From: Candidatus Saccharimonadota bacterium
GTDB lineage: Bacteria; Patescibacteriota; Saccharimonadia; Saccharimonadales; Saccharimonadaceae
Assembly: GCF_025273655.1 (NCBI RefSeq)
Contig: NZ_CP045921.1
Location: forward strand, 1,049,309-1,081,308
DNA: 32,000 nt
Reading direction: 5' to 3'
Shown: positions 2,134 to 31,499 of the stretch, piece by piece
Layout of the letters: each line of letters begins with the position of its first letter
Position numbering within the stretch: the first letter of the stretch is position 1
Program-made: the position numbers and the translations under genes
The notes under the pieces: model-generated
Databases searched by the model: none
What the model was told of the DNA's origin: nothing
What the model saw: the letters and a program-made list of their open reading frames with translations, nothing else

Positions 2134-2670
2134 TTAGTTTGCCGCCAAAAACATATCTACGATACGAGGAATCATGATCCTATGATGAGTGATAGTGCGC
2201 TCCGGAAGCGCGTCAACTGGCCAAAATTTTCCTTCTTGTATCTCGTCGTCGCTGACATCAGTTACGAAATAAAACATGTGATTTAGTTCTTTTGCACGCC
2301 TGGAATCACCAAAACGAAGCCCCGCATACTCAATCTCGTCTATAGGCTTGACGACTCCATGCATTTCATCACGTAGCACTCTTTCCCTACAACTTGGGAA
2401 GTCCTGTCCTTCGGCATCCGATGCCCGAATTATCGTGCCAGTCATGTGCCATTCGCCCGGCCAGAAAGGATCATCTTTTGGACGCTGAGTCAGGAGTACT
2501 TCAGTGATACCCTGATTTACACGTATAGCCAAGAGCTCGTATGACGGCTGTGTTATCTTGGCGCTCACGGCGATAAACAAGTCGAAAGGAAGGTATCCTC
2601 GCGGCAATCTATTGAGCGTGTCTACCGCTTGACTAATCTCTTCATTGCTAGGTCGGTTTGTAGTGTCCAT
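2134..2670 (-). CDS. Nudix-fold-like hydrolase with a degenerate Nudix box
   Basis: The track ORF (to 2685) begins at a TTG; the first ATG (MDTTNRPS...) is at 2670. The segment WPGEWHMTGTIIRASDAEGQDFPSCRERVLRDEMHGV resembles the Nudix signature GX5EX7REUXEEXGU but carries insertions. There is no SD. A TATTAT box ends 6 nt before the ATG. Confidence 0.5.
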   Translation of the reverse strand: MDTTNRPSNEEISQAVDTLNRLPRGYLPFDLFIAVSAKITQPSYELLAIRVNQGITEVLLTQRPKDDPFWPGEWHMTGTIIRASDAEGQDFPSCRERVLRDEMHGVVKPIDEIEYAGLRFGDSRRAKELNHMFYFVTDVSDDEIQEGKFWPVDALPERTITHHRIMIPRIVDMFLAAN

Positions 2671-2672
2671 AA

Positions 2673-2681
2673 TGATATAAT
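2673..2681 (+). promoter_or_regulatory. Extended -10 promoter element (TGATATAAT) for the rmlCD-rmlA operon
   Basis: TGATATAAT at 2673-2681 is a perfect TGnTATAAT. It is followed by SD AAGGAGG (2695-2701) and ATG 2716. No convincing -35 was seen. Confidence 0.4.
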
Positions 2682-2715
2682 ACAAGGAGCATTAAAGGAG
2701 GTGCAAGTACGGGAA

Positions 2716-4131
2716 ATGGCAGATATATCTTCAGAAATTGAATTCAATAAACAACTCAAATCATACGAAACATCTATCGATGGACTCGTTGTATATGATC
2801 TGCCTGTCTTCGGTGATAATCGCGGCTGGTTCAAGGAGAACTGGCAACGCGAGAAGATGACTGCCGTCGGCCTGCCTGATTTTGGGCCAGTCCAAAACAA
2901 CTTTAGCTTCAACGATAAGCGCGGTGTGGCACGCGGTATCCACGCCGAACCATGGGATAAGTATGTTTCACTTGGTAGTGGCCGTATCTTCGGTTTCTGG
3001 GTCGACATCCGCGAAGGCAGCGCTACCTATGGCGAGCATTTCACTGTCGAACTTGATCCGTCCAAAGCCATTTTCGTCCCCCGCGGCGTGGCCAACGGCT
3101 ACCAAACGCTCGAAGACAACACCGTCTATAGCTACCTGGTCAACGACCATTGGTCGCCGGACGCTCAGTACTCGTTCGTGAGTATGTTCGACGAGTCGAT
3201 TGGCATCGACTGGCCGATTCCGCTCAGCGAGTGCGAAATCTCCGACAAAGACAAAAATCATCCGAACCTCGCTGATGCTGTGGCGATCAAACCCAAGAAA
3301 ACCCTCATAGTCGGAGCCAATGGGCAACTAGGTCGTGCGCTTCAGGTTCTATACCCAGAGGCAGAGTGTGTTGACCGTGATTCTCTCGACATCTCTTCGC
3401 CAGATGTCTTCACCGCTCGTCGCTGGCGTGATTATGGTACAATCCTGAACGCAGCAGCCTATACGGCTGTCGACCTAGCCGAGACGGAGCAGGGTCGCCG
3501 CGACGCCTGGACTGCCAATGCCACCGCTGTTGCTAACCTTGCTCGCATCGCTACCGAATACGGCATCACGCTCGTCCACGTCTCGAGCGATTACGTATTT
3601 GATGGCACAGCCGAGCAGCACACGGAGGATGAGGACTTCGCACCGCTGGGCGTCTACGGACAGAGCAAAGCCGCCGGAGATATCGTTGTCAGCACCACTC
3701 CGTGCCACTACATCGCTCGCACTAGTTGGGTTATCGGCGACGGTAACAATTTCGTACGCACCATGAATTCGTTGGCTGAAAAGGGTATCAAACCAAGCGT
3801 CGTCAGCGATCAAATTGGACGTCTCACATTTACCGAGGACTTAGCCGCTGGTATTAAGCATCTCCTCGACAATAAGGCACCGTTTGGCACCTACAACATA
3901 AGTAATGATGGTGAGCCAGCCAGCTGGGCTGATATCGCAGCTGAAGTCTACGAGCTGAGCGGTAAGTCCCGTGACGATGTCACACAAGTCACCACCGAGC
4001 AATATTACGAGGGTAAGACAGGTATTGCCCCTCGCCCGTTGCAAAGTACGCTCAATCTTGAGAAAATAAAAGCTACAGGCTTCGCTCCGCGTGAGTGGAA
4101 GACCGCACTAACAGAGTATTTGGAGAAATAA
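2716..4131 (+). CDS. rmlCD: Bifunctional dTDP-4-dehydrorhamnose 3,5-epimerase / dTDP-4-dehydrorhamnose reductase (RmlC-RmlD fusion)
   Basis: The N-terminal half has the RmlC cupin signature ([18 protein letters not shown] ... HAEPWDKYV ... [14 protein letters not shown]). From about nt 3298 the RmlD Rossmann signature begins ([15 protein letters not shown] ... [12 protein letters not shown] ... YGQSKAAGD). The track start 2629 is a TTG that overlaps the divergent gene. ATG 2716 lies downstream of AAGGAGG. Confidence 0.9.
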
Positions 4132-5000: not shown

Positions 5001-5029
5001 AACCTCTCGGTCAACCTGAGAGGTTTTTT
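5001..5029. terminator. Bidirectional rho-independent terminator between convergent rmlA and the GT-C-like gene
   Basis: Stem AACCTCTC (5001-5008) pairs with GAGAGGTT (5018-5025) around a 9-nt loop. A T-run follows on the + strand (5024-5029), and TTTT(AAA) follows on the - strand. Confidence 0.7.
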
Positions 5030-6410
5030 AGTGTGAAGTTTTACGCAAGATTGAGCGCGGTGCATTTCGAACCACAAACCACACAAATAGGACACTAATA
5101 CTAGTAGCTAACATACTCCAGTAGAGAAATCTCGCATCTGTGACGATACTACCCGGTGCATACGACAGAATATTGAGCATCGACGACGCTAGCATCACTA
5201 TGATTGGTGAATATAGTGTACTCCTACGGTGTCTGCGTGTGATATAGACGGCACACAACAGGCTCACTGCGACCCAAAACCACGCTGCGTATATAAACCT
5301 GAAATTGGCGTAACCAAAGTTGACAGTGTAGGAATACAGGATTGACTGTGTCGCCCTACTCGTGAGTTTGGTTTCGTCTTGCCGCGGGAAGACCATCTGC
5401 GACTCGTCCGGGAACAAGAACTGCATATATGTCTCGACTTTTTGCGCCATATACCTTGCAGGATGCTGTGATACCACCTGTGTCCAGTACCGTACCAGCT
5501 CTCGGCGTACGTGTGCATCATGAAAACCAGTTTCGTTCTTGAAACCACCTGAGCACTCTTCCCATGTAGCAAGTTTGGTCTGCGGTTGTGCGTACAGCGA
5601 ACAGCCCGATATGCGCACGAGCTTGTCTCTGACATTCGCAGGTGCGGTGCGCTGTATCTCATCGCTCGGGACAATATTCACGATATCCAGCGCATACATT
5701 GTCACAGTCGAAGAGCTTTTGTATGCATGTGTCATATACCCAAGCAGACTTACAAAGATAAGTGAACCGATCGCTATACCTACCGTGACACCGCTCACCA
5801 TCAAGCTGCGGCGCTTACTACCTTGCGGCAACAATGTATCTGCATAAAGCCACATGAGTGGTAGTACCGCGGCCACCGCGTTGACGCGCAGTGCAATTGC
5901 ATAGATAAGTAGCAGCGGGGTTATGGTGGCAATAGATATGCGCAACCATCGAGCTGTAATATACTCCGTACGAAGCAACCACGTCAGCGACGCCGCGAGC
6001 AGCAATGCAGTTCCCATCTGAGTATCTTTCCAGAGTACCCCACTCACTGCCAATACACTCGGCACAAAGGCCAAAGCAAATACGGCCAGCGCCTTGGCGA
6101 CACTCCTAGTGCGACCAAACATCAACGCAGCGAACACATAGAGTCCTGACCACAAAAACACTTGCTGTAATAGCAACAATCCGCTGTCGTTGCCGCCCAT
6201 GACATATATCAGCCCTGACCACACCAGGGCCATTGCGATAGGATGCCATGTGTCAAGCTGGCAATCGCCTGTCGCCTGGCAGAGTTGCCATACCGTATCA
6301 GTGGTGCGCATGCCGGGGTAGAACAGCAGTATCGAGACGAAGAGACCCACCATAGCGGCAACCAATAACCACCACTGCCGCCAAATCGCAGTATTGCCCC
6401 TCTGAATCAT
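5028..6410 (-). CDS. Polytopic membrane protein, GT-C-type glycosyltransferase candidate (family unassigned)
   Basis: 460 aa with about 10 or more hydrophobic helices. The first external loop carries acidic and aromatic residues ([15 protein letters not shown]...[10 protein letters not shown]), as in ArnT/PMT-like GT-C enzymes. Its ATG 6410 overlaps the GtrA stop (ATGA at 6407-6410). Confidence 0.6.
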
Positions 6411-13473: not shown

Positions 13474-14052
13474 ATGCAGCTACAAAAACAAAAAAGTCGC
13501 AAAAAACCGCTCATCATCACATCGCTTATCATACTTTGCGTCGCCGTAGCAGTGGGCGCATGGTATGTAATACATACGCGTAGTCAGCAGTCCGAATCTT
13601 ACACCACCAAACCAGCCACACAAGAGGAAAAGGACGCGGGAACTCAGACAAAACAGGATTCGATCAACAACTCGAGCCAACAGGGTGCGTCTGACTCTGA
13701 TACTAGCACCAACAGCGACAAGCAATCTGGTGCCTCGACCGACACCGGTACATCTACCACTACTCCTGCTGCTGCCGTCACTATCTCTGCAAGCGCCCAA
13801 AACGGCAACACCTACCAACTTCGCTTCCTCATCAACTCTGTCGTCACTGGCGGCACCTGCCAACTGACGCTCACAAAAGGTAGTGCAACCGTCACCAAAC
13901 AAGCGGCTATTCAGTCGCTCGCTCAGTCCTCAACTTGCCAGGGCTTCGACATCCCTACGAGCGAGCTCAGCACGGGTACCTGGAACGTCTCAATGCAGCT
14001 CAGTGGCAGTAGCCATACTGGTGGCGTAACTGGCACCATAGAGGTAAGGTAG
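13474..14052 (+). CDS. Membrane-anchored extracytoplasmic protein with a Ser/Thr-rich linker; function unknown
   Basis: A basic N-terminus precedes one TM helix (LIITSLIILCVAVAVGAWYVI). An ~80-aa S/T/Q/D-rich low-complexity linker follows, then a ~90-aa beta-rich domain with two Cys. Good SD. The gene ends 8 nt before the next gene. Confidence 0.6.
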   Translation: MQLQKQKSRKKPLIITSLIILCVAVAVGAWYVIHTRSQQSESYTTKPATQEEKDAGTQTKQDSINNSSQQGASDSDTSTNSDKQSGASTDTGTSTTTPAAAVTISASAQNGNTYQLRFLINSVVTGGTCQLTLTKGSATVTKQAAIQSLAQSSTCQGFDIPTSELSTGTWNVSMQLSGSSHTGGVTGTIEVR

Positions 14053-14060
14053 TAATAGGT

Positions 14061-15989
14061 ATGTATTCACTACTCCATGGCATTGGCCTCACATGCGCAG
14101 GATTGGCGATCACCCTCACCATATCACTTGTCGGCAATACTACACATGCTGCCGGATTCGACGCTGGCCGTATCATCGACGACAGTGTATTCACCGACAA
14201 AAACACCATGAGCCCCGCCTATATTCAGGCGTTTCTGAATAGCAAAGTACCGAGCTGTGACACCTGGGGCACCCAGACATCGGAGTACGGTGGTGGCACT
14301 CGTCGCCAGTGGGCCGAAGCTCGTGGCTACATGGCACCTTACACCTGCTTGCGCGACTATACCGAAAACGGCCGCTCTGCCGCGCAGATTATCTACGACA
14401 CTGCTCAGGCCTACTCTATCAACCCGCAAGTTTTGATCGTCCTCCTCCAAAAAGAGCAGGGGCTTGTCACCGACACCTGGCCTGTTTCGGTCCAGTACCG
14501 CTCAGCCACCGGCTACGGCTGCCCCGACACCGCTCCATGCGACTCACAGTATTATGGCCTCACTAATCAACTAAGCTGGGCTGCCAAAATGTTCCGGGCC
14601 ATCATGGATGCATCACCTAGCTGGTATACACCCTATATAGTCGGTACCAACTACATCCGCTACAATCCAGACGCCAGCTGTGGCGGCTCCAATGTTGCGA
14701 TCCAAAACCGCGCCACTCAGGCACTCTACAACTACACCCCCTACCAACCGAACGCTGCAGCACTCGCGGCCGCCATGGGCACAACTGTTCCATGTGGTGC
14801 CTACGGCAATATCAACTTCTACCGCTACTTCACCTCATGGTTTGGTAACACATCCGGTGCACCCTATAGCTGGCGTGTCGAATCGACCACACTCTACTAT
14901 GACGCCGCACGCACACAGATTGTCTCCAACACCAACGGCATCTACAATATCAAACCCGGCCAAAAAGTCTATGCGCGCGTCGTTACCACTAACACAGGCT
15001 GGCTCACCTGGCCCAAAGCTACAACACGACTCGGTACACAACGGGGTCAGGATCGAAGCTCAGCGTTCGCCGACAGCAGCTGGCAGCAACCAAATCGTAC
15101 AGGCGGCTACACTGAGAGTGGCGATGTCGCTCCCGGCAATCAAGCCACCTTCAACTACAGCCTCACAGCTCCACAATCGCCAGATATCTACGAAGAATGG
15201 TTTGGTGTCGTAGTGGAAGGTGCCGGCTGGGTGTCGAACCCGACATTCCTACACAATATCTCTGTGGCAGCGGCACTCGACACTAAGTATAAATCCACCA
15301 ACGACAAACTCAGTAGCGGCGCTACCCTTACCCCGGGCCAAAACATCATCTCGAGCGACGGCCACTCGGTACTTCACCTGTCGTTTGGCGGAAGCTTAGA
15401 AATCTGGACCAACTATACTAAGCGTTGGACTAGTAACACCGACAATAGCGGCGCCAATCGCCTTGTCAATCAAACCGATGGCAATCTAGTACTGTACCGC
15501 GACAACACGCCGCTCTGGGCATCTAATACATTCTCGCCTGGCACAAGCGGCCAGCTCACCCTGCAAAGCGACGGCAACTTGGTGATGTATAAAAACGGCA
15601 GTGCAGCCTGGGCATCCAACTCTGTAACATTTGATCAAACCGACCTCGCGAACAGTCTTGTGCTTGGTGACCAAACTATTTTCCCAGGTCAGTCACTTTT
15701 CACGCCAGATCGTTATTACCGCCTCACCTTACAGACAGACGGCAATATCGTCCTCTATACGCCGACGCGTGCTATCTGGGCTAGCAACACCTATGGCAGA
15801 AAGTTTGACCGTATGATCATCCAAAACGACGGCAATATCGTTACCTACGATGGCAATAATTATGCTACCTGGTCGACACGAACCAATTCTACCGGTGGCA
15901 CCATCTTCCGTATACAGGGTGATGGCAACTCGGTACTTTACGCAGGCAATAGGCCGCTCTGGGCAAGCAATACGTTCCTAGTGCGCTAA
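14061..15989 (+). CDS. Secreted protein: unassigned Cys-rich N-terminal domain, Ig-like middle region and two tandem bulb-type (B_lectin/MMBL) lectin domains
   Basis: The signal peptide is MYSLLHGIGLTCAGLAITLTISLVGNTTHA/AG. The C-terminal residues ~414-642 carry five intact QxDxNxVxY motifs: QTDGNLVLY, QSDGNLVMY, QTDGNIVLY, QNDGNIVTY and QGDGNSVLY. Confidence 0.85.
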   Translation: MYSLLHGIGLTCAGLAITLTISLVGNTTHAAGFDAGRIIDDSVFTDKNTMSPAYIQAFLNSKVPSCDTWGTQTSEYGGGTRRQWAEARGYMAPYTCLRDYTENGRSAAQIIYDTAQAYSINPQVLIVLLQKEQGLVTDTWPVSVQYRSATGYGCPDTAPCDSQYYGLTNQLSWAAKMFRAIMDASPSWYTPYIVGTNYIRYNPDASCGGSNVAIQNRATQALYNYTPYQPNAAALAAAMGTTVPCGAYGNINFYRYFTSWFGNTSGAPYSWRVESTTLYYDAARTQIVSNTNGIYNIKPGQKVYARVVTTNTGWLTWPKATTRLGTQRGQDRSSAFADSSWQQPNRTGGYTESGDVAPGNQATFNYSLTAPQSPDIYEEWFGVVVEGAGWVSNPTFLHNISVAAALDTKYKSTNDKLSSGATLTPGQNIISSDGHSVLHLSFGGSLEIWTNYTKRWTSNTDNSGANRLVNQTDGNLVLYRDNTPLWASNTFSPGTSGQLTLQSDGNLVMYKNGSAAWASNSVTFDQTDLANSLVLGDQTIFPGQSLFTPDRYYRLTLQTDGNIVLYTPTRAIWASNTYGRKFDRMIIQNDGNIVTYDGNNYATWSTRTNSTGGTIFRIQGDGNSVLYAGNRPLWASNTFLVR

Positions 15990-18212: not shown

Positions 18213-19415
18213 TTACAGTCGCTTAACCTGCAACTCTTCCCCGTTTAATAGCGCGTAATCCGATTTCTCGCCTTTGTTGCGTATAGAGAAAAATGCAGAA
18301 TTCACATCACTTGTAAAACCAAGTACGCCGGCTTTTTTGGGGTTGGCACCATCTCGCAGCGACGAAATAATTTTGAAATCACCACTGTTGAACCATTTGA
18401 GTGGTATGTCAAACGTCAGAGTCTGCTTGCCTCCAAGTGCTTCTATGGAACCGCTGTCATATACCACACCGCCTCGCCGTACATCGAGCAGGGAAAACGC
18501 CGCATAGACTTTCTTATGCGAATGATTCGTGTATTCAATCGAGAAACGAAATACGTCGTCACTTGTCACGACCTTTTTTGACACAGCAACATTACGCAGT
18601 ACTGGCGTATCTTTGCTCAGTCCGGTCTCATATTTACCGTCATCCTTGCTTTTGCTCACGTCGGCCGGTAAATTGTCGGCAACGTACTGGTTTGCAACAT
18701 CTTCAGGGTTGCCTTCGATCTTGATTTTACCCTTCTCAATCAGCAAAGCCTTTGTACAATACTTAGTCACCGCCCCCATATCATGTGTTACCAGGATGAC
18801 GGTCTTTTTACGTTTTTTGAGGCTGAGGAAATATTCGTTGCATTTACGCTGAAACGCTTCGTCACCTACGGCCAGTACTTCGTCGAGCAGTAGAATATCG
18901 CCATCGGCACGGATCGCAATAGAGAATGCTAGGCGCACCTGCATGCCACTAGAATAGTTCTTGAGGCGCTCTTCCATAAAATCACCCAACTCGGCAAATT
19001 CTACGATATCATCATACATTTTCGCCATGTCAGTGTGGCTAAAACCGAGCAGCGCACCATTGAGAAATACATTTTCGCGACCTGTCAGCTCGGGGTTGAA
19101 GCCGACGCCCAGCTCAATGAACGGTACGAGTGTGCCTTTTGTTTGGATGCTACCACCATTTGGCTCGTAGATACCCGCTAGAAGCTTAAGTAGTGTACTC
19201 TTACCACTGCCGTTGCGTCCCACTATACCAAAGAAGTCACCTTCGTTAATTGTAAAGCTGACATTTTGCAGTGGACTGAATTCACGATAGCCTTTGACGC
19301 CCCGAAAACGATTAATGATTGCTTGCTTGATGCCAGAACTTTGCTCCGTAGGAATACGAAAGGTCTTCGATAAATCTTCAACCACAATCGCCGGTGTTTT
19401 CTGTATATTGGCCAC
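18213..19415 (-). CDS. Polysaccharide/teichoic-acid ABC exporter ATP-binding protein (Wzt/TagH-like) with a C-terminal extension
   Basis: Walker A is GRNGSGKST, the signature is YSSGMQVRL and Walker B is ILLLDE. A ~150-aa C-terminal beta-rich domain follows the NBD. The track start (19466) is a GTG inside the permease gene. GTG 19415 is preceded by GGAGGA with an 8-nt spacer and lies 1 nt after the permease stop. Confidence 0.9.
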   Translation of the reverse strand: MANIQKTPAIVVEDLSKTFRIPTEQSSGIKQAIINRFRGVKGYREFSPLQNVSFTINEGDFFGIVGRNGSGKSTLLKLLAGIYEPNGGSIQTKGTLVPFIELGVGFNPELTGRENVFLNGALLGFSHTDMAKMYDDIVEFAELGDFMEERLKNYSSGMQVRLAFSIAIRADGDILLLDEVLAVGDEAFQRKCNEYFLSLKKRKKTVILVTHDMGAVTKYCTKALLIEKGKIKIEGNPEDVANQYVADNLPADVSKSKDDGKYETGLSKDTPVLRNVAVSKKVVTSDDVFRFSIEYTNHSHKKVYAAFSLLDVRRGGVVYDSGSIEALGGKQTLTFDIPLKWFNSGDFKIISSLRDGANPKKAGVLGFTSDVNSAFFSIRNKGEKSDYALLNGEELQVKRL

Positions 19416-19416
19416 T

Positions 19417-20223
19417 TTATATATCCTCCGCAAACGTCTTGGCTCGTTTCTTGAAATACCAGACACCGAATATCGATGTTACTATGACGATGACAAATGG
19501 AATCAATACTTTCCAACCACTGACGAGCTGATAAAGAGTAATGCTGTCTTGTGTCACAAGTACATAGCGGATGTCCTGTACCGTCTGTGCGATAGGGTTA
19601 AGCATAATAAGCTTGGCAGCGAGCGGACTCTCGGCAACTACCATTGCTACCGGATAGATGATCGGTGTAGCATAGAACGCCGCTTGTAGAAATATATCCC
19701 AGAGGTAGCCGATATCCCGTAGCTTGACATTAAGCGCAGAGAGGAAAAACGCCAACCCAAGAGCAAACACATACAGCTCAATAATAAGTGGTACAACAAG
19801 CAGCGCCATGGGGCTAATATGGACACCGTTGAGTAGGATAAATACAAACACCACAACCAGGTTGAAAGCGAGGTTGATGAGTGCCGACACGGTACCCGAG
19901 ATCACGATTATATAGCGTGGGAAATTAATCTTACGAATCAGATCTCCGCGAGCAATAATCGCGTTGAGCCCGTTGGTAGTGGCTTCAGTAAAGAAGCCCC
20001 ATAGCACAATACCGAGCAGTAAGTAGACCGGGAAGTGCTCAATGTCGCGACCGAGTTTCAGGAACTGGTTGAAAACGACATAGAGAATAGCAAACAGGAA
20101 GAGTGGTTTGAGCATACTCCATGCATATCCAAGTGCCGATCCCTGATAGCGAAGCTTGAAATCGGTAATAATTAGCTCACGCAGCAAGATGCGGTTTTTA
20201 GCAGCGAATAAGTTATTTACCAT
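19417..20223 (-). CDS. ABC-2 type polysaccharide exporter permease (Wzm/TagG-like)
   Basis: LLRELIITDFKLRYQGSALGYAWSMLKPLFLF is the hallmark ABC-2 N-terminus. Six TM helices. ATG at 20223. Confidence 0.9.
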   Translation of the reverse strand: MVNNLFAAKNRILLRELIITDFKLRYQGSALGYAWSMLKPLFLFAILYVVFNQFLKLGRDIEHFPVYLLLGIVLWGFFTEATTNGLNAIIARGDLIRKINFPRYIIVISGTVSALINLAFNLVVVFVFILLNGVHISPMALLVVPLIIELYVFALGLAFFLSALNVKLRDIGYLWDIFLQAAFYATPIIYPVAMVVAESPLAAKLIMLNPIAQTVQDIRYVLVTQDSITLYQLVSGWKVLIPFVIVIVTSIFGVWYFKKRAKTFAEDI

Positions 20224-25517: not shown

Positions 25518-26519
25518 ATGAGTAGCGTTGCAGTCGTCGTACTAAATTTCAATGCCGAAGAGAAGACTATCGAGTGTCTTGATTCGCTAGCTCGTCAGAC
25601 CTACCAAGATATAACACCAATCATCGTCGACAACGCCTCGACACATACGACACAGCTGCGGGATTACACGGCGGCACATCAGATTGCGTTTTTGCAAAAT
25701 CCTGTCAATACTGGCTTCGCGGGTGGCGTCAACACTGGTATTCGCCATGCGCTGGAGCATAAGTATGATTTCGTGACACTCCTCAACAACGACGCCCTAC
25801 CCGCCCCCGACTGGATCGAGCAACTTGTCTCCTGCGCACACGACACCAAGAGCGATATCGTAACCGGCCTCATGCTCCATAGTAGCGGCAAAACAATCGA
25901 TAGCACAGGTGAACAATACTCTGTATGGGGACTGCCTTTTCCACGCGATCGCAACCGCCCGGCGGCACATGCGGCAGTTTCGGGGCCAACATTTGGTGCA
26001 ACAGGTGGCGGCACCCTCTATAATGCAAAAGTATTCCGAGAGATAGGACTATTCGATGAAACGTTTTTCGCCTACCTTGAAGATGTCGATATTAGTTTTC
26101 GCGCCCAGCTCGCTGGACTTAAGATGTATTACTGCGCTGAGGCTGTACTCTACCACGAGCAAGGGGGTACGTTCAATAAATATCCAGCTGTTCGTACGAT
26201 GCATTATTTCAAAAACCTACCACTCGTTTATATCAAAAACATCCCTGCGCCTCTATTATTACCAGTGGGCGCCCGTCTCATCATTGCCTATACCCTCATA
26301 TTTTTCAAAGCAATCATACACGGAGGTGTTATACCGGCACTCAAAGGTTGGTTGTGGCAGATCCCTCTTTTCTGGTTCCACGCCCTCCCCGCCAGGCACA
26401 AAATCCAGAGAGATAAAAAGGTAGGTGACGACTATATTAAATCAATCCTCTGGCCCGACCTTCCGCCGGATCAAACGGGTCTGCGCAAATTCCGCTCGCT
26501 TTTCACTGGCAAGAAATAG
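25518..26519 (+). CDS. Glycosyltransferase family 2 (rhamnosyltransferase-like, COG1216 type)
   Basis: VAVVVLNFNAEEKTIECLDSLARQTY...IIVDNAST, LLNNDA and GGGTLYNAKVFREIGLFDETFFAYLEDVDISFRA are typical of WbbL-like GT2 enzymes. Confidence 0.85.
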   Translation: MSSVAVVVLNFNAEEKTIECLDSLARQTYQDITPIIVDNASTHTTQLRDYTAAHQIAFLQNPVNTGFAGGVNTGIRHALEHKYDFVTLLNNDALPAPDWIEQLVSCAHDTKSDIVTGLMLHSSGKTIDSTGEQYSVWGLPFPRDRNRPAAHAAVSGPTFGATGGGTLYNAKVFREIGLFDETFFAYLEDVDISFRAQLAGLKMYYCAEAVLYHEQGGTFNKYPAVRTMHYFKNLPLVYIKNIPAPLLLPVGARLIIAYTLIFFKAIIHGGVIPALKGWLWQIPLFWFHALPARHKIQRDKKVGDDYIKSILWPDLPPDQTGLRKFRSLFTGKK

Positions 26520-26533
26520 TACACTAGTAGATA

Positions 26534-27598
26534 ATGCGTTTACTCGAATACGAAGCCAAGCGACTCCTCGCAACTAGCGGTATTGCAGTACCAAACTCTC
26601 AGCTGCTGCACACCCCAGACGAGTTACCCGAAGTGTTCCCCGCTGTCATCAAGGCACAAGTACTCACTGGTCGCCGCAATAAATTTGGCGGTATACAGCT
26701 CGTACGTGAGCAGGGGAAACTCGCCGAAGCGGTGCGTTCGGTCTTCGTAGCGGATATCGATGGCTATACAGCCACCAGCGTACTTGCCGAGGAGTTGCTC
26801 GACATCGACCGCGAGTTCTACCTGAATGTATCTGTCGATCGCGACGAGCAGGCAATCGTACTCATGGCGCACAAAGATGGTGGTGTGGATATTGAGTCAC
26901 AGCCACTTGATGCGTTTTTCCGCGAAGTAGCCGATGACACTACAGAGACACAGGCGCTTCGCTTGGCAGAATATCTTGGTCTAGAGTCACAAGAATTTGC
27001 ACTAGGCGAACTCATCGGAAAGATTGTCGGTTGCATGCGTACGCAGGACGCGCTGCTGTGTGAGATTAACCCTCTCGTCCTGACGCGCAGTGGCATACTC
27101 GTGGCAGCCGACTGCAAAATGGAGCTCGACAATGCCGCGAGCTTTCGTCACCCCGACTGGGATTTCTACGACAAACCCACAAGCGCCAATTTTGTCGAGC
27201 TCGACAAACAGGGCGTAGTCGCTACTATTGCCAATGGAGCCGGCCTCGCCATGGCGACAGTCGATGCCGTGTCTGCTGCAGGTTATTCACCCACAAACTT
27301 CCTAGATATTGGTGGCGGAGCAAGTAAGGACACTGTACTCGCAGCGTTTCACGAGCTCATGACCTACCCACTACTGGATGCAATCGTCATCAATATCTTC
27401 GCCGGTATCACCCGCTGCGACGAGGTGGCGCGTGCCATCCTCGCGGCTCGCGAGGAAATTGCCAATCTCCCCCAGCTCTATATTCGCCTTGACGGCACCA
27501 ACGTAGACCAAGCAAAAGAGATATTAGCCGAATCGCAACTTCCGCTCTATCCGTCACTCGGTGAAGCCGTAGCTGCAATAGGAGCTCATAATGTCTAG
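26534..27598 (+). CDS. sucC: Succinyl-CoA synthetase beta-subunit-like ATP-grasp protein (ADP-forming acyl-CoA ligase beta)
   Basis: MRLLEYEAKRLL..., ...CEINPLV..., NGAGLAMATVD and FLDIGGGAS...INIFAGITRCD are collinear with SucC. The protein is 354 aa, shorter than E. coli SucC as I recall it (388 aa). The glycine-rich loop reads TGRRNKFGG. Confidence 0.8.
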   Translation: MRLLEYEAKRLLATSGIAVPNSQLLHTPDELPEVFPAVIKAQVLTGRRNKFGGIQLVREQGKLAEAVRSVFVADIDGYTATSVLAEELLDIDREFYLNVSVDRDEQAIVLMAHKDGGVDIESQPLDAFFREVADDTTETQALRLAEYLGLESQEFALGELIGKIVGCMRTQDALLCEINPLVLTRSGILVAADCKMELDNAASFRHPDWDFYDKPTSANFVELDKQGVVATIANGAGLAMATVDAVSAAGYSPTNFLDIGGGASKDTVLAAFHELMTYPLLDAIVINIFAGITRCDEVARAILAAREEIANLPQLYIRLDGTNVDQAKEILAESQLPLYPSLGEAVAAIGAHNV

Positions 27599-28466
27599 CG
27601 TCTTTGCGCCTAAATCCGTCATCGTCCAAGGTATCACCGGTTCCCATGGGTCGTTTCATGCGCGCGCTATGCGTGACTATGGTACAAATGTTGTAGCTGG
27701 CACATCACCAAACAAAGCGGGGGAGTCGGTCGACAGCATCCCCGTGTACCGCACGGTTCGCGATATCCAAGCTGAGCATGAGGTAGACGCCACTGTTATT
27801 TTCGTCCCCGCCAGCGCTGCTCGCGGCGCCATCTTCGAGGCTATTGACGCACATATCCCGCTCATTGTCTGTATCACCGAAGGTATCCCCGTGCACGACA
27901 TGCTAGCCGTCCGCCAGAAGCTCAGTACGAGCAACTGCGTACTTGTCGGCCCAAATAGCCCCGGTATCGCTATGCCTGGCCAATCCAAACTCGGCATCAT
28001 CCCTAGCCACATCCTCTCACCTGGTCGTATCGGCGTCGTGAGTCGCAGCGGTACGCTTACCTACGAAGCAGTGAGTGATCTGACGCGTGCCGGACTTGGC
28101 CAAGCAAGTGTCCTCGGTATTGGTGGTGACTCAATAAAAGGCTTGGATTTCGTCGACTGCCTGGCGCAGTTCGAAGCCGACGAGCGCGTCGATGCAGTCG
28201 TATTGATTGGTGAGATCGGCGGGCAGAGCGAAAATAAAGCCGCCGAATATATCAAAACATCCGCCAGCAAGCCTGTCGTCGCCTACATCGCCGGCCATGC
28301 CGCTCCAGCCGGTGTGCAGCTTGGCCACGCTGGCGCCATACTCGGTACCCAGTCTGAGTCTGCCGTCTACAAATCACAGCAGCTGCGAGACGCTGGGGTA
28401 ACCGTAGTAGACAGTGTGACCGACATCGCTCCGGCAATACAAACAAGGCTAGGAGTCACCACATGA
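27591..28466 (+). CDS. sucD: Succinyl-CoA synthetase alpha-subunit-like protein (CoA-binding, phosphohistidine)
   Basis: VIVQGITGSHGSFHARAMRDYGTNVVAGTSPNKAG, VSRSGTLTYE and the phosphohistidine loop GHAGAIL are all present. SD GGAG lies 6 nt upstream. The start overlaps the sucC-like stop by 8 nt. Confidence 0.9.
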   Translation: MSSVFAPKSVIVQGITGSHGSFHARAMRDYGTNVVAGTSPNKAGESVDSIPVYRTVRDIQAEHEVDATVIFVPASAARGAIFEAIDAHIPLIVCITEGIPVHDMLAVRQKLSTSNCVLVGPNSPGIAMPGQSKLGIIPSHILSPGRIGVVSRSGTLTYEAVSDLTRAGLGQASVLGIGGDSIKGLDFVDCLAQFEADERVDAVVLIGEIGGQSENKAAEYIKTSASKPVVAYIAGHAAPAGVQLGHAGAILGTQSESAVYKSQQLRDAGVTVVDSVTDIAPAIQTRLGVTT

Positions 28467-29554
28467 GTCATATTGCGATCGACGCTCGTATTATCAATAG
28501 TTCTACTGGTAGGTACGTAGAGCGGTTGATAAATTATCTGGAGCAAATTGACCACGAGAATACATATACAGTTCTGGTACCAACAAAAGACAAGGATTTT
28601 TATACTCCAACCAACCCCAATTTTACGATCCAAACTATTGATTTTGCTAATTACTCGTTCGGGGAGCAACTAGGGTTCAAGAAATACCTCGACGAACTCG
28701 GTGCCGATCTTGTGCACTTCTGTATGCCCCAACAGCCTATCCTCTACCAGGGCCGCCACGTGACGACGTTTCATGATCTGACACTCCTCAATACATATAA
28801 TTCCGATAAAAACTGGTTTGTCTTTCATGCCAAGCAGCTTGTTGGTCGTTTCGTATTTCATAGAGTCTGCGCATCGAGCGACCGGATTCTCACACCGACA
28901 TGGACAGTCAAGCATGAACTGGAGGCATTTCACCCGAAGATTGAGCACAAAACTGTTGTCACCTACGAAGCTGCCGACAAACTCCAGGCCGGAAAAGTAA
29001 CTCCATACGACACGCCGTTCAAACGATACCTACTCTATGTAGGGCAGCAAAGCGACTACAAAAACATCAAGCGCCTCGGTGACGCACACCAGAAACTACT
29101 CGAGACCCACCCCGACCTTGGTCTCATTCTTGTCGGTCGCATGAACAAAAGTGCCGAGATGACTAAAGCGTACTTTGATAAAAACGAGTATAAAAATATC
29201 CATTTCACAGGCTTTGTCGAAGATGATCAGCGCGACTGGCTATTCGAGAACTGCGCAGCTTATGTCTTCCCCTCGCTCATGGAGGGATTTGGCTTACCTC
29301 CTCTTGAAGCCATGCAGTACGACGCGCCCGTCGTGAGTAGTAATGCGTCGTGCATGCCAGAAGTGCTCGGCGACGCAGCTCACTATTTCACCCCGACAGA
29401 CACCGATGATATCGCGCGCGCAGTAAATGACGTATTGACCAACGATGCTTTGCGAGAAGAATTGATCTCGAAGGGAAAAGTGCAGCGCGAGAAGTATTCA
29501 TGGCGCAAGATGGCCGAAGAGACGTTGGCGCAGTATCGGATCGCCTTAGAGTGA
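28463..29554 (+). CDS. Glycosyltransferase family 4 (GT-B)
   Basis: FPSLMEGFGLPPLEAMQYDAPVVSSNASCMPEVLGDAA is the EX7E motif. An ATGA overlap joins it to the sucD-like stop (28463-28466). SD AGGAG at 28451-28455. Confidence 0.85.
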   Translation: MSHIAIDARIINSSTGRYVERLINYLEQIDHENTYTVLVPTKDKDFYTPTNPNFTIQTIDFANYSFGEQLGFKKYLDELGADLVHFCMPQQPILYQGRHVTTFHDLTLLNTYNSDKNWFVFHAKQLVGRFVFHRVCASSDRILTPTWTVKHELEAFHPKIEHKTVVTYEAADKLQAGKVTPYDTPFKRYLLYVGQQSDYKNIKRLGDAHQKLLETHPDLGLILVGRMNKSAEMTKAYFDKNEYKNIHFTGFVEDDQRDWLFENCAAYVFPSLMEGFGLPPLEAMQYDAPVVSSNASCMPEVLGDAAHYFTPTDTDDIARAVNDVLTNDALREELISKGKVQREKYSWRKMAEETLAQYRIALE

Positions 29555-29608: not shown

Positions 29609-30070
29609 CTACGAACTTGCCTGAGCGATAATCAGGCGACGATCACGGCCTTCGCCTTCAGAAAAAGTGCGGATATCGCTATACTCGGTCGCAACCTGGT
29701 GTACCACACGGCGATCGGCAGCATTGAGATCGGCCACGTAGCTATCGCCTGTTTTGCGCACTTCTTCGATCCAGCCACGTGCTTTCTCGGCAAGCTTATC
29801 GGCGCGTTGGCGCTTGTAGTCTGCCACATCGACGTTGACACGCTGCAGCTCGGCGTTCTGATTGCGCAGTACGCTCGCGACGATAGATTGCAGGCTACGC
29901 AGCGTCTCGGCATTGCGGCCAATCAAGAGGCTATTGAGCTCACTTGAACCCACCGAAATGTTGATTACACCATCTTCAACACTTGCTACTACTTCAACAT
30001 TGATTTCAAAAAACGAAATGATATCTTGGACTGTTTTCTGCGCCAAGGCAGCTGATTGTTCCTGATTCAT
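29609..30070 (-). CDS. jag: Jag/KhpB-type RNA-binding protein (KH + R3H domains)
   Basis: The KH GXXG loop is LIGRNAETLRSLQ and the R3H region is AADRRVVHQVATEY...SEGEGRDRRLII. An ATGA overlap joins it to the yidC stop (30067-30070). This is the conserved position after yidC. Confidence 0.85.
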   Translation of the reverse strand: MNQEQSAALAQKTVQDIISFFEINVEVVASVEDGVINISVGSSELNSLLIGRNAETLRSLQSIVASVLRNQNAELQRVNVDVADYKRQRADKLAEKARGWIEEVRKTGDSYVADLNAADRRVVHQVATEYSDIRTFSEGEGRDRRLIIAQASS

Positions 30071-31092
30071 GATTTGCCTCCTTTGCCTGATGTCTTTGCG
30101 ACGACACGGACAGTAGCTTTTTGGCTTGGCTTCTTTTTCTTGGACTTTTGGGACTTGGATTTTACAACTGGAGCTGTCGTGACAACCTCTGCCTTGTGAG
30201 CCTTGGCTTCACGGGCTTTAGCCTTTTTCTCGGCCGCTTCGGTGGCGTCGGTGGCGATATCGGCAATCTCCTCCATCTCCTCTTCGTCGCGCTGGAGCAA
30301 GATATGTTGCTGCAGCACCGCTACAGCCGTGGAGACTGCATAGTAGAGCGCGATAGCACCAGGCAAGGTAAGCATAATTGCCGTCATGAAGACAGGTAGG
30401 AACTTGGTCATTTTCTGCATTACTACAGCATTGATTTCAGACTGGTCAGCTTGTTTGCCATCGGCTGCTTCCGCCATGAGCTGGCGTAGACCTTTTTTAT
30501 CACTACTGGCCTGCTGCGGCATGGTTTGCTTGGACGAAATATACTGCAATGCGCCCGACGCTACCGCCAGGAAGACGAGGAACCAGCTCACGCCGCTCGA
30601 ACTAATCGCGTGCTGAGTTAGGTCGATAACACCGAACAGGTTCTGATTAAACGAATCCGGATACTGGATGAGGTGGGCGACAGGTGGCCACTGCTCAAGG
30701 AACCCGTAGGTAAACTTGGCAAGCTCGTCACGGTGTAGGGTAAAGATCTGGATAACATGATACAAACCGATAAAGATCGGTAGCTGCACTAGTAGAATCA
30801 ACACCGTGCGAAACGGATTGACATTGTGCTTCTTGTAGAGCTCCATCATCATCATGCCTTCAAGCTGCTTGTTGCCTTTGGCCTTTTTCTTGATACGCAC
30901 CAGTTCCGGCTGGAGTTTGCGCATCGCTTTTACTTGGTGAAGTTGCTTCTTCACGAGTGGCCACATGAGCATGCGGATAATGATAGTGAAGATGATAACC
31001 GCGATACCAAAATCGCCCCCAGGAATCAACCCATAAATCACCATCAGGGCATTAAAAATCGGTTGCACCACTATCAGATCAAACGGACTCAC
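30067..31092 (-). CDS. yidC: Membrane protein insertase YidC (short, monoderm type) with a Lys-rich C-terminal tail
   Basis: FGIAVIIFTIIIRMLMWPLVKKQLHQVKAMRKLQPE...MMELYKKHNVNP is the YidC/Oxa1 signature. The start is GTG 31092, preceded by GAGGAAGGTGA. Confidence 0.93.
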   Translation of the reverse strand: MSPFDLIVVQPIFNALMVIYGLIPGGDFGIAVIIFTIIIRMLMWPLVKKQLHQVKAMRKLQPELVRIKKKAKGNKQLEGMMMMELYKKHNVNPFRTVLILLVQLPIFIGLYHVIQIFTLHRDELAKFTYGFLEQWPPVAHLIQYPDSFNQNLFGVIDLTQHAISSSGVSWFLVFLAVASGALQYISSKQTMPQQASSDKKGLRQLMAEAADGKQADQSEINAVVMQKMTKFLPVFMTAIMLTLPGAIALYYAVSTAVAVLQQHILLQRDEEEMEEIADIATDATEAAEKKAKAREAKAHKAEVVTTAPVVKSKSQKSKKKKPSQKATVRVVAKTSGKGGKS

Positions 31093-31142
31093 TTACTTCA
31101 CCTTCCTCATCGGATTATTTACTATTAGTCAGTATACCATTT

Positions 31143-31499
31143 TTACTCTTGTGGCGCGAATACGCCAACATCGGTCAGCTGAGTATAGAGCTGCGCCATA
31201 AGCTCCTCGTACGGCACGAGTGCCACCTCGGCAGTACAGACCATTACCACTACGTCCTGCGCACCAACAAACTCAGCCAAGCGAGCGTGTAGTAAGTGGT
31301 AGACGCGACGGCGAATACGATTGCGACCCACGGCAGATTTGAGGACTTTTTTGCTCACCACGACACTGCAGCGCGGATCCATGCGACGGGAATTGGGAAC
31401 TGCACGCACCATAAATAGACGTGAGCGACTCACTGCGCCGTTGCGATAGACATATTTGAGACTGGCATGACCATGGAATCGGTGTTTTTGGGCTAACAT
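31143..31499 (-). CDS. rnpA: Ribonuclease P protein component
   Basis: 118 aa and basic. VVVSKKVLKSAVGRNRIRRRVYHLL is the RNR motif region. It sits in the conserved position between rpmH and yidC. Confidence 0.9.
   Translation of the reverse strand: MLAQKHRFHGHASLKYVYRNGAVSRSRLFMVRAVPNSRRMDPRCSVVVSKKVLKSAVGRNRIRRRVYHLLHARLAEFVGAQDVVVMVCTAEVALVPYEELMAQLYTQLTDVGVFAPQE

What the first reader, a model, noticed from the sequence alone, without database searches (positions are those of the whole stretch)
26534..28466. SucC/SucD-like acyl-CoA synthetase pair translationally coupled inside a glycosyltransferase operon
The gene order is GT2 (25518-26519), a 14-nt gap, sucC-like, an 8-nt overlap, sucD-like, an ATGA overlap, then GT4 (28463-29554). 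The two subunits are therefore embedded in, and coupled to, glycan genes rather than TCA genes. No sdh, mdh or odh genes are nearby.

The alpha subunit keeps the phosphohistidine loop GHAGA. The beta subunit is ~30 aa shorter than the E. coli length I recall, and its glycine-rich loop is altered (TGRRNKFGG).

Possible roles include supplying an activated dicarboxylate (succinyl-, malyl- or similar CoA) for glycan acylation, or substrate-level ATP formation in a reduced genome. No acyltransferase is visible in this window, so the link to the glycan is unproven.
Basis: partly seen in the sequence, partly recalled or inferred. Interest (0 to 1): 0.7.

Follow-up and report, generated by a model that had tools for sequence, protein, structure and literature searches.

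The report
TCA-less succinyl-CoA synthetase in glycan operon
A compact but intact succinyl-CoA synthetase sits inside the cell-wall polysaccharide operon of every Saccharibacteria (TM7) genome examined, in bacteria that appear to lack a citric-acid cycle, so it most likely makes succinyl-CoA to decorate the cell surface rather than to yield energy, though this is not yet proven.

Summary
GT2, SucC-like, SucD-like and GT4 lie on one strand with a 14-nt gap, an 8-nt overlap and an ATGA overlap. The window is from a Saccharibacteria genome, next to jag-yidC-rnpA.

The alpha subunit passes NCBI's SucD cut-off. The beta subunit is a short (354 aa), long-branched Saccharibacteria-specific SucC clade. 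All catalytic and succinate-contact residues are kept. The odd GRRNKFGG loop marks only a subclade.

The embedding is conserved in 16 of 16 genomes, including four loci chosen through the neighbouring GT4.

Published Tn-seq tables for cultivated Southlakia epibionticum show the same arrangement. There sucC and sucD are non-essential, while the flanking Wzm/Wzt and GT genes are essential.

By annotation that genome has no TCA enzymes, no other acyl-CoA-forming enzyme, no CoA-transferase and no DapD. Its listed acyl-CoA users are one OpgC-family acyltransferase (a family that succinylates glucans) and two GNATs.

Best reading (about 0.4): an anabolic ligase making succinyl-CoA from scavenged succinate for dispensable O-succinylation of an envelope glycan.

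Still unproven: no acyltransferase lies in any locus, the window's own genome was not inventoried, and the substrate is untested. Searches found no paper discussing this.

The parts
25518..26519 (+). GT2 glycosyltransferase (333 aa, WbbL/rhamnosyltransferase-like). It is the first gene of the four-gene unit and lies directly upstream of sucC in most relatives.
   Evidence: Pfam Glycos_transf_2 2.6e-21. Best NCBIfam hit is rhamnosyltransferase TIGR01556 at 1.9e-17, below its cut-off. Orthologs at 43-52% identity sit upstream of SucC in L003, L005, L010 and L011. The S. epibionticum counterpart SEML1_0895 is called GD/ES/ES.
26534..27598 (+). SucC-like beta subunit (354 aa): ATP-grasp plus CoA-ligase domains, from a short Saccharibacteria-specific subfamily.
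   Evidence: Pfam. NCBIfam SucC 275.5 bits against a cut-off of 370. PDB 3ufx_B 2.8e-58 and E. coli 1e-48. Catalytic residues are invariant in 121 homologs. Monophyletic, long-branched clade.
26666..26692 (+). Beta-subunit phosphate loop TGRRNKFGG (canonical form AGGRGKAGG).
   Evidence: Conserved in the window's subclade (30 of 121). The other 90 homologs keep GGRGKAGG.
27392..27412 (+). Beta-subunit NIFAGIT motif. It is the counterpart of canonical NIFGGIV, whose GIV backbone binds the succinate C4-carboxylate.
   Evidence: Ala replaces the first Gly in 106 of 121 homologs. The role of GIV is taken from PMC11489063. T. thermophilus SCS also has GIT.
27591..28466 (+). SucD alpha subunit (291 aa): CoA-binding domain and phosphohistidine domain.
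   Evidence: NCBIfam SucD equivalog 376.2 bits against a cut-off of 336. PDB hits around 1e-82. GPNSPG, SRSGTLTYE (succinate-contact Tyr), GEIGG and GHAGA are all present.
28463..29554 (+). GT4 glycosyltransferase (363 aa), translationally coupled to sucD. It is the most conserved gene of the block.
   Evidence: Pfam Glycos_transf_1 2.2e-29. It is 55-80% identical in relatives, and the top 120 homologs are all at least 64% identical. The S. epibionticum counterpart SEML1_0900 is called GD/ES/ES.
18213..20223 (-). Wzt (ABC ATPase) and Wzm (ABC-2 permease) glycan exporter. It forms the conserved left flank of the block in relatives.
   Evidence: Pfam ABC_tran and ABC2_membrane. Found next to the sucCD unit in 9 of 11 loci mapped or listed. 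SEML1_0893 and 0894 are essential.
29609..31499 (-). jag (R3H/KH), yidC and rnpA. This is the conserved right boundary, adjacent to rpmH-dnaA in relatives. It is context and not part of the system.
   Evidence: Pfam. Same order in all loci.

Best explanation
The pair is a working, streamlined ADP/GDP-forming succinate--CoA ligase. Saccharibacteria keep it even though they appear to lack a TCA cycle.

It runs in the ATP-consuming direction: succinate + CoA + NTP gives succinyl-CoA. The succinate is presumably scavenged, possibly from the host, and the CoA salvaged. These steps are inferred.

It is co-transcribed with the conserved core of the Wzm/Wzt cell-envelope polysaccharide operon. This is shown by gene overlaps here and by conserved order in 16 genomes.

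The succinyl-CoA is then used by an acyltransferase encoded elsewhere to O-succinylate an envelope glycan. In the cultivated relative the candidate is an OpgC-family acyltransferase-3 membrane protein. The result would be a non-essential anionic decoration of an essential polymer. This last step is inferred and no product has been observed.
For: Enzyme integrity.
- The alpha subunit scores above the SucD equivalog cut-off.
- Both subunits align full-length to solved SCS structures.
- In the beta subunit, Lys40, Glu177, Asn179, Asp193 and the NGAGLAM and NFLDxGGG motifs are invariant in 121 homologs.
- In the alpha subunit, the phospho-His, Glu and succinate-contact Tyr are kept in all 8 alphas compared.
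- The beta GI(T/V) motif is kept. Enzymes repurposed to other acids change these positions to His and GIN.

Conserved operon. The block GT2-SucC-SucD-(GtrB-GtrA)-GT4 lies next to Wzm/Wzt and jag in 16 of 16 genomes. Four of those loci were chosen through the GT4. sucD is always 30 nt or less from, or overlapping, a downstream GT gene.

Direction and consumers. These rest on text searches of the published genome tables of S. epibionticum (PMC10633639).
- 'CoA' appears only in the SucC and SucD rows of the annotation table.
- No TCA enzymes are listed.
- No CoA-transferase, Pta or AckA is listed.
- No acetyl-CoA enzymes are listed.
- No DAP pathway, homoserine pathway or GlmU is listed.
- No thioesterase or ACP is listed.
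- The only acyltransferase-3 protein is SEML1_0704, an OpgC-domain protein (PF10129 2.5e-40).

What OpgC-type proteins do. OpgC/MdoC, Cgm and ExoH are glycan O-succinyltransferases, and IcaC is proposed to be one. SucT succinylates mycobacterial AG and LAM. The presumed donor is succinyl-CoA.

Phenotype. sucC, sucD and SEML1_0704 are all non-essential, whereas the flanking glycan genes are essential. That fits a decoration rather than backbone synthesis.
Against: - No acyltransferase is encoded in the window, in about 6 kb further upstream, or within 10 kb of sucCD in any relative.
- The OpgC-like gene is about 177 kb from sucCD in S. epibionticum.
- Whether an OpgC-like gene exists in the window's own genome or across the phylum could not be tested.
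- In Tn-seq, sucC and sucD mutants decline less (T2/T0 reads 0.66 and 0.56) than OpgC mutants (0.29). That is not what strict donor dependence predicts.
- Gene order near oriC is generally stable in these genomes, so adjacency alone is weak evidence.
- The inventory rests on annotation text, and many genes in those tables are listed only as hypothetical proteins.
- The substrate is inferred from a few residues. The Gly-to-Ala change beside the succinate site and the GRRNK loop are unexplained.
- No succinylated glycan has been reported in Saccharibacteria in the papers searched.
Confidence: 0.4

Rival explanations
1. It is a general supplier of acyl-CoA with no specific link to the glycan. As the only acyl-CoA-forming enzyme in the genome, it would feed the few GNAT acyltransferases, for example for protein or small-molecule succinylation or acylation. 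Its place in the glycan operon would then reflect long-standing gene-order stability or convenient co-expression near oriC.
For: Two GNAT proteins (SEML1_0091 and 0292) exist in the relative, and no acetyl-CoA source is annotated. No acyltransferase lies in any glycan locus. The neighbouring jag-yidC-rnpA-dnaA order is equally conserved.
Against: sucCD stays coupled to GT genes even though the flanking GTs are reshuffled and 0-5 kb of glycan genes come and go between sucD and the GT4. In L008, L012 and L091 sucC heads the transcription unit that continues into GT genes.
Confidence: 0.2
2. The enzyme is the same, but the physiological acid is not succinate. It could be malate, another dicarboxylate, or a short monocarboxylate such as acetate. 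The enzyme would then provide a different acyl-CoA for glycan or other acylation.
For: The beta subunit is far below the SucC cut-off. Gly-to-Ala next to the carboxylate-binding GI(T/V) occurs in 106 of 121 homologs. SucCD-family enzymes have been recruited to sulfoacetate and 3-sulfopropionate. GNATs in the relative would normally need acetyl-CoA, and no other source is annotated.
Against: The alpha Tyr and the beta GI(T/V), which are the positions changed in repurposed enzymes, are retained. The MtkA model scores lower than the SucC model (211.5 against 275.5 bits). The ACD model is far below its cut-off.
Confidence: 0.15
3. Energy conservation. The enzyme would run in reverse, converting succinyl-CoA, ADP and phosphate to ATP. 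This could be part of an acetate:succinate CoA-transferase/SCS cycle as in hydrogenosomes, or it could use acyl-CoA taken from the host.
For: Organisms without a TCA cycle are known to use SCS this way (my own background knowledge, not checked here). Saccharibacteria are short of energy and depend on their hosts.
Against: The relative has no annotated CoA-transferase, PFOR, PDH, PFL or any other source of acetyl-CoA or succinyl-CoA. A paper on ATP-generating pathways of TM7x mentions neither succinate nor an acyl-CoA route. sucCD is non-essential. This reading does not explain the glycan-operon context.
Confidence: 0.08
4. NTP supply for nucleotide-sugar synthesis. The phosphohistidine enzyme would act like, or together with, nucleoside-diphosphate kinase to supply GTP, dTTP or UTP. 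This was proposed for SCS-Ndk and alginate in Pseudomonas (recalled from memory).
For: The locus is rich in nucleotide-sugar enzymes. The phosphate loop is altered in the window's clade.
Against: A normal Ndk is present in the relative (SEML1_0118). The CoA-binding and succinate-contact residues are fully conserved, which this role would not require.
Confidence: 0.05

Closest known systems
Canonical succinyl-CoA synthetase SucCD of the TCA cycle (E. coli 1cqi/2scu; Thermus thermophilus 3ufx)
   Same: Two-subunit architecture. All catalytic residues are present: the phospho-His loop, alpha Glu, beta Glu177, the Mg ligands, the CoA-binding fold and the succinate-contact Tyr and GI(V/T). The alpha subunit passes the SucD equivalog cut-off.
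   Different: The beta subunit is about 34 aa shorter through loop deletions, sits on a long branch and scores below the SucC cut-off. Most homologs have NIFAGIT instead of NIFGGIV, and the window's subclade has GRRNK instead of GGRGK. There is no TCA context. Instead the pair lies inside a Wzm/Wzt glycan operon next to oriC.
SucCD-family ligases recruited to non-TCA operons: SauCD (sulfoacetate-CoA ligase, Bilophila) and HpfYZ (3-sulfopropionate, Enterococcus gilvus)
   Same: A SucCD-type pair embedded in an operon for another pathway, making or using an acyl-CoA outside the TCA cycle.
   Different: Those enzymes changed the acid-binding signature (alpha Tyr to His, beta GIV to GIN). They sit with aldehyde dehydrogenases and transporters of a catabolic route. 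Here the succinate signature is kept and the partners are glycosyltransferases.
Glycan O-succinylation systems: OpgC/MdoC and Cgm (periplasmic glucans), ExoH (succinoglycan), SucT (mycobacterial arabinogalactan and LAM), IcaC (PNAG, proposed)
   Same: A dispensable anionic succinyl decoration of envelope glycans made by an acyltransferase-3 membrane protein, presumed to draw on cytoplasmic succinyl-CoA. The cultivated relative encodes one OpgC-family protein.
   Different: In those organisms succinyl-CoA comes from the TCA cycle, and no dedicated SCS is part of the glycan locus. Here the SCS is in the glycan operon while the acyltransferase is elsewhere. No succinylated product has been shown.
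ASCT/SCS cycle of hydrogenosomes and anaerobic parasites (my own background knowledge)
   Same: SCS retained in an organism without a TCA cycle.
   Different: That cycle needs an acetate:succinate CoA-transferase and a source of acetyl-CoA. Neither is annotated in the relative.

Membership tests
Succinyl-CoA synthetase (SucCD, EC 6.2.1.4/5) | Alpha subunit with CoA-binding plus CoA-ligase domains, and beta subunit with ATP-grasp_2 plus CoA-ligase domains, encoded as adjacent genes | tested here: met
   Pfam hits. Full-length alignments to solved SCS chains. A natural beta-alpha fusion exists in the subfamily.
Succinyl-CoA synthetase (SucCD, EC 6.2.1.4/5) | Catalytic phosphohistidine loop (GHAGA) with its two partner glutamates (alpha GEIGG, beta E-I-N-P-L), plus the ATP-grasp Lys and Mg ligands | tested here: met
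   Alpha residues 245-249 and 207-211. Beta Glu177, Asn179, Asp193 and Lys40. Invariant in 121 beta and 8 alpha sequences.
Succinyl-CoA synthetase (SucCD, EC 6.2.1.4/5) | Succinate C4-carboxylate contacts: alpha Tyr (SRSGTLTYE) and the beta G-I-V/T backbone | tested here: met
   Both are present. Their roles are taken from PMC11489063. The adjacent Gly-to-Ala change is unexplained.
Succinyl-CoA synthetase (SucCD, EC 6.2.1.4/5) | Score above the curated NCBIfam equivalog cut-offs | tested here: inconclusive
   The alpha subunit is met (376.2 against 336). The beta subunit is not met (275.5 against 370; TIGR01016 265 against 375.55).
Succinyl-CoA synthetase (SucCD, EC 6.2.1.4/5) | Forms succinyl-CoA from succinate, CoA and NTP | not testable with these tools
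   Needs an enzyme assay.
TCA-cycle SucCD (physiological role) | Operates with 2-oxoglutarate dehydrogenase and succinate dehydrogenase in a TCA cycle | tested here: not met
   No such genes occur in the 32-kb window. None is annotated in the whole genome of the relative S. epibionticum. The window's own genome was not inventoried.
Malate--CoA ligase (MtkAB) | Best match and above-cut-off score to the MtkA and MtkB models | tested here: not met
   MtkA scores 211.5 bits against a cut-off of 604 and is lower than the SucC model. There is no MtkB hit for the alpha subunit.
ADP-forming acetyl-CoA synthetase (ACD) / ATP-citrate lyase / citryl-CoA synthetase | Best match to those families | tested here: not met
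   ACD alpha model 83 bits against 567. ACL and citryl-CoA synthetase chains match at only 1e-13 to 1e-37, against 1e-58 to 1e-82 for SCS.
Glycan O-succinylation system (acyltransferase-3 such as OpgC, ExoH or SucT, plus succinyl-CoA) | An acyltransferase-3 or OpgC-family membrane acyltransferase in the same genome | tested here: inconclusive
   Present in S. epibionticum (SEML1_0704, PF10129 2.5e-40). Absent from the window, the extra upstream DNA and all loci within 10 kb of sucCD. The rest of the window's genome is not available.
Glycan O-succinylation system (acyltransferase-3 such as OpgC, ExoH or SucT, plus succinyl-CoA) | Succinyl esters on an envelope glycan, dependent on the genes | not testable with these tools
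   Needs NMR or MS of cell-wall glycans from wild type and mutants.

The most novel reading that the evidence does not exclude
Saccharibacteria keep a dedicated, TCA-independent succinyl-CoA synthetase as part of their essential cell-wall polysaccharide operon. They use it to turn succinate into a surface succinyl decoration through an OpgC-like acyltransferase. The succinate may come from the host; succinate as a major fermentation product of Actinomyces-type hosts is my own background knowledge and was not checked. The epibiont's surface charge would then be set by a host metabolite, and SCS would be the sole entry point to acyl-CoA chemistry in these minimal cells.
Probability: 0.3. Interest if true: 0.65.

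Novelty: new variant of a known kind. Interest (0 to 1): 0.5.

Why it matters
Saccharibacteria and other Patescibacteria have very small metabolic networks, so every conserved enzyme that seems out of place is a clue to how they live on their hosts.

This enzyme is a textbook TCA enzyme, yet it is retained phylum-wide without the cycle. It is wired into the operon of a surface polymer that is essential in the one relative tested. By annotation it is the only maker of an acyl-CoA in a cultivated member.

If it supplies a succinyl decoration, it links a scavenged metabolite to the epibiont's surface chemistry. That could bear on adhesion, host range and immune recognition.

The idea can be tested directly. 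S. epibionticum is genetically tractable, and mutants in both sucCD and the OpgC-like gene are viable.

The case also cautions against counting 'SucCD present' as evidence of a partial TCA cycle in reconstructions from metagenome-assembled genomes.

Tried and rejected
- Literature searches for Saccharibacteria, TM7 or Patescibacteria together with succinyl-CoA (synthetase), OpgC or succinylated glycans found nothing relevant. The Lipocone paper only cites an SCS reference. A TM7x ATP-pathway paper does not mention succinate or CoA enzymes.
- Search for an acyltransferase in the window. Permissive Pfam scans (E up to 1) of all unannotated ORFs and of the extra domains of the long GTs gave none. 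The 460-aa membrane protein at 5028-6410 is placed after GtrA and has the topology expected of a GT-C glycosyltransferase, not an acyltransferase-3.
- The variable inserts and all other ORFs in seven related loci hold only GTs, pyruvyl transferases, rhamnan enzymes and nucleotide-sugar enzymes.
- About 6 kb beyond the window's left edge also holds no acyltransferase.
- I could not retrieve an OpgC-like sequence from Saccharibacteria, so its distribution across the phylum is untested.
- The 'core family' flag in the Tn-seq table turned out to refer to 921 pan-bacterial families. It says nothing about conservation within Saccharibacteria.
- A regulatory RNA near the operon: no Rfam match.
- Rejected: the DapD/lysine-pathway role (no DAP pathway genes), the NTP-supply role (Ndk present) and pseudogene decay (intact ORFs and invariant catalytic residues in 121 homologs).
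Full report
OBSERVATION. The junctions read from the sequence are a 14-nt gap, an 8-nt ATGTCTAG overlap and an ATGA overlap. GGAG and AGGAG ribosome-binding sites lie ahead of sucD and the GT4. No terminator-like or promoter-like sites above chance occur inside the unit, and there is no Rfam match. Pfam confirms ATP-grasp_2 plus Ligase_CoA in the beta subunit, CoA_binding plus Ligase_CoA in the alpha subunit, and GT2 and GT4 domains in the flanking genes.

CONTEXT. The rest of the window is one large cell-envelope polysaccharide locus. It holds:
- an rmlC-rmlD fusion and rmlA;
- epimerases;
- GtrA, a GtrB-like GT2, and YfhO and DUF2142 GT-C proteins;
- a polysaccharide pyruvyl transferase;
- a Wzm/Wzt ABC exporter;
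- five further GTs.
The locus ends at jag-yidC-rnpA, next to the replication origin. Names attached to homologs identify the source as Saccharibacteria (TM7). No TCA gene and no acyltransferase is present in the window, even at a permissive threshold. The same holds for about 6 kb further upstream on the Logan contig that carries the window.

THE ENZYME. The alpha subunit is an ordinary SucD. It scores 376 bits against NCBI's SucD equivalog cut-off of 336 and about 1e-82 against solved SucD chains.

The beta subunit is diverged. It scores 275.5 bits against a cut-off of 370, although SucC is still its best model, ahead of MtkA at 211.5 bits. Its best solved-structure match is Thermus SCS at 2.8e-58. 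It is 34 aa shorter than E. coli SucC because of five or six loop deletions.

Across 121 homologs the following are invariant: the ATP-grasp Lys, the catalytic Glu (EINPL), the Mg ligands, and the NGAGLAM and NFLDxGGG motifs. In eight alpha subunits the phospho-His (GHAGA), the partner Glu (GEIGG) and the Tyr of SRSGTLTYE are invariant.

According to PMC11489063, that Tyr and the backbone of the beta 'GIV' motif hold the C4-carboxylate of succinate. Relatives recruited to sulfonated acids change them to His and GIN. Here they are Tyr and GIT, and Thermus SCS also has GIT. The pair therefore looks like an active ligase that still takes succinate or a very similar dicarboxylate.

Two differences remain unexplained:
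- Ala replaces the first Gly of NIFGGI in 106 of 121 homologs.
- The phosphate loop reads GRRNK(F/Y)GG in the window's subclade (30 of 121), while the rest keep GGRGKAGG. The 'altered glycine-rich loop' is thus a conserved feature of one subclade. It is neither a family hallmark nor a sign of decay.

A DISTINCT SUBFAMILY. In the species-representative genome scan, the Saccharibacteria hits are 45-50% identical and everything else, canonical SucC from many phyla, is 40% or less. A neighbour-joining tree puts all Saccharibacteria sequences (349-357 aa) in one clade on a long stem. That clade is separate from bacterial and archaeal SucC of 376-400 aa, and it has two subclades matching the two loop types. 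This tree is simple and has no bootstrap support. An exhaustive search of 1.84 billion representatives gives about ten 50%-identity clusters of this type (341-362 aa, 233-329 bits). Scores then fall to about 200 bits and lengths move to the canonical range. One of those representatives is a natural SucC-SucD fusion.

SYNTENY. I mapped the window's proteins onto relatives whose SucC is 94% to 45% identical. Every locus has the same core: Wzt-Wzm on one strand; then usually the GT2, then SucC-SucD; then 0-5 kb of variable glycan genes; then the conserved GT4; then jag-yidC-rnpA-(rpmH)-dnaA. The variable inserts hold a GtrB-like GT2 with GtrA, a mannose-1-phosphate guanylyltransferase and a UDP-GlcNAc 2-epimerase.

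To avoid ascertainment through SucC, I also chose four loci through the GT4, whose top 120 homologs are all at least 64% identical. All four carry SucC-SucD upstream. With the cultivated species described next, that makes 16 of 16 genomes. sucD is always followed within 30 nt, or overlapped, by a glycosyltransferase gene on the same strand. In three loci sucC is the first gene after a divergent promoter region. The persistent feature is therefore co-transcription of sucCD with downstream glycan genes.

EXPERIMENTAL AND WHOLE-GENOME DATA FROM A RELATIVE. The supplementary tables of Wang et al. 2023 (PMC10633639) cover the cultivated Saccharibacterium Southlakia epibionticum. They list the same block:
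- SEML1_0893 and 0894: Wzt and Wzm;
- 0895: GT2;
- 0896: SCS beta;
- 0897: SCS alpha;
- 0898: GtrB-type GT2;
- 0899: GtrA;
- 0900: GT4;
- then, after SEML1_0901 (hypothetical protein), LemA, the KH/Jag protein, YidC and RnpA at the end of the genome.

Their Tn-seq calls are NE/NE/NE for both SCS genes. Each has about 50 insertion sites, and normalised reads fall from 3502 to 2308 and from 4655 to 2623. Calls for 0892-0895, 0898 and 0900 are GD/ES/ES, and 0899 is GD/GD/ES. The paper's text does not discuss these SCS genes.

- A word beginning 'CoA' occurs only in the two SCS rows of the annotation table, and 'acetyltransferase' never occurs there.
- No citrate synthase, aconitase, fumarase, 2-oxoglutarate enzyme or succinate dehydrogenase is listed.
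- No CoA-transferase, acetate kinase, phosphotransacetylase or pantothenate enzyme is listed.
- No acetyl-CoA enzyme, AMP-binding ligase, PDH, PFOR or thiolase is listed.
- No DAP or homoserine pathway and no GlmU is listed.
- No thioesterase or ACP is listed.
- Ndk and a malic enzyme are present.
- Possible CoA salvage enzymes appear only as structural matches: a dephospho-CoA-kinase-like protein and a PPAT-like protein.

The only proteins that could consume an acyl-CoA are two GNATs and one acyltransferase-3 protein, SEML1_0704. It is annotated 'OpgC domain-containing' (PF10129 2.5e-40, PF01757 8.4e-13) and lies next to a GT39/PMT_2 GT-C gene. It too is non-essential, with reads falling from 2654 to 773.

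INTERPRETATION. By annotation, nothing else in that genome can make or regenerate succinyl-CoA. The enzyme can therefore only be useful in the succinyl-CoA-forming direction. That removes the TCA, ASCT/SCS-type ATP-yielding and DapD readings for that organism.

OpgC/MdoC proteins are the succinyltransferases of periplasmic glucans in E. coli, Rhodobacter, Brucella and Dickeya. ExoH and SucT do the same for succinoglycan and for mycobacterial arabinogalactan and LAM, and IcaC is proposed to do so for PNAG. The donor is presumed to be succinyl-CoA. Loss of such decorations is tolerated in those organisms. That matches non-essential sucCD and OpgC genes sitting among essential backbone genes.

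My best explanation (confidence about 0.4) is that this SCS supplies succinyl-CoA, from scavenged succinate and salvaged CoA, for O-succinylation of the envelope polysaccharide whose operon it sits in. What is shown: enzyme integrity, a distinct subfamily, conserved operon membership, dispensability, and absence of a TCA cycle and of other acyl-CoA enzymes in a relative. What is inferred: the substrate, the direction, the acceptor and the acyltransferase.

WEAKNESSES.
- No acyltransferase lies in any of the glycan loci.
- The OpgC-like gene is distant from sucCD in S. epibionticum.
- Whether an OpgC-like gene exists in the window's genome or across the phylum could not be tested.
- sucCD mutants lose less fitness than OpgC mutants (read ratios 0.66 and 0.56 against 0.29), which argues against strict dependence.
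- The inventory depends on annotation of a genome in which many genes are listed only as hypothetical proteins.
- Gene order near the origin is generally stable in these genomes.

RIVALS.
- A general acyl-CoA supplier for GNATs, with the synteny being historical (0.2).
- A different acid substrate (0.15).
- ATP generation (0.08).
- NTP supply (0.05).

NOVELTY. Five literature searches found no paper discussing an SCS in Saccharibacteria or succinylated glycans in this group. The genes are merely listed in a supplementary table. The enzyme belongs to a known family, and glycan succinylation is a known process. The new element is a TCA-orphan, streamlined SCS subfamily fixed inside an essential glycan operon across a phylum-level lineage. 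I therefore rate it a new variant of a known kind, of moderate interest (0.5). It is directly testable because the relevant mutants are viable in a tractable strain.

Noticed in passing
P0247 (686 aa; representative library): A natural fusion of the short SucC-type beta subunit (residues 1-339) and SucD (400-686, 48% identical to the window's alpha), joined by a linker of about 60 aa. It belongs to the same subfamily.
   Followed up: partly
window 26666-26692: The beta-subunit phosphate loop reads G-R-R-N-K-F-G-G instead of G-G-R-G-K-A-G-G. The change is conserved throughout the window's subclade (30 of 121 homologs). It may alter nucleotide or phosphate handling, and no explanation was found.
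   Followed up: partly
window 13474-14052 and 14061-15989: A gene pair: a 192-aa membrane-anchored Ser/Thr-rich protein and a 642-aa protein with a B_lectin domain. The pair recurs beside the glycan locus in L003, L007 and L010. By position and size it looks like the counterpart of SEML1_0890 and 0891, which are essential in S. epibionticum and are described there as glycan-binding envelope proteins.
   Followed up: partly
window 28463-29554: The GT4 next to jag is more conserved than SucCD. It is 55-80% identical in relatives, and its top 120 homologs are all at least 64% identical. Its counterpart SEML1_0900 is essential. It may make a conserved primer or anchor of the polymer.
   Followed up: partly
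window 2629-4131: A fusion of dTDP-4-dehydrorhamnose 3,5-epimerase (RmlC) and reductase (RmlD) in one 476-500 aa protein, followed by rmlA.
   Followed up: no
L011 8688-9946: A histidine-kinase-like ATPase gene plus a STAS-like DUF4325 gene, inserted between the GT2 and sucC in one relative. It looks like an inserted two-gene module.
   Followed up: no
L012 5375-7930; L003 3090-6903: Unusual pyruvyl-transferase fusions in related glycan loci. One is an FrhB (F420-hydrogenase beta-like)-pyruvyl transferase protein of 851 aa. The other is an epimerase-pyruvyl transferase fusion next to a TPP enzyme.
   Followed up: no
L094 1-4037 (same contig, upstream of the window): Three tandem NUDIX genes, two epimerase/dehydratase genes and a small cytidylyltransferase-like gene lie just beyond the window's left edge. 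A similar small cytidylyltransferase-like protein in S. epibionticum has PPAT among its structural matches.
   Followed up: no
window 5028-6410 (- strand): A 460-aa polytopic membrane protein with no Pfam match, overlapping the end of GtrA by 4 nt. By its position after GtrA it is probably a type-specific GT-C glycosyltransferase.
   Followed up: partly
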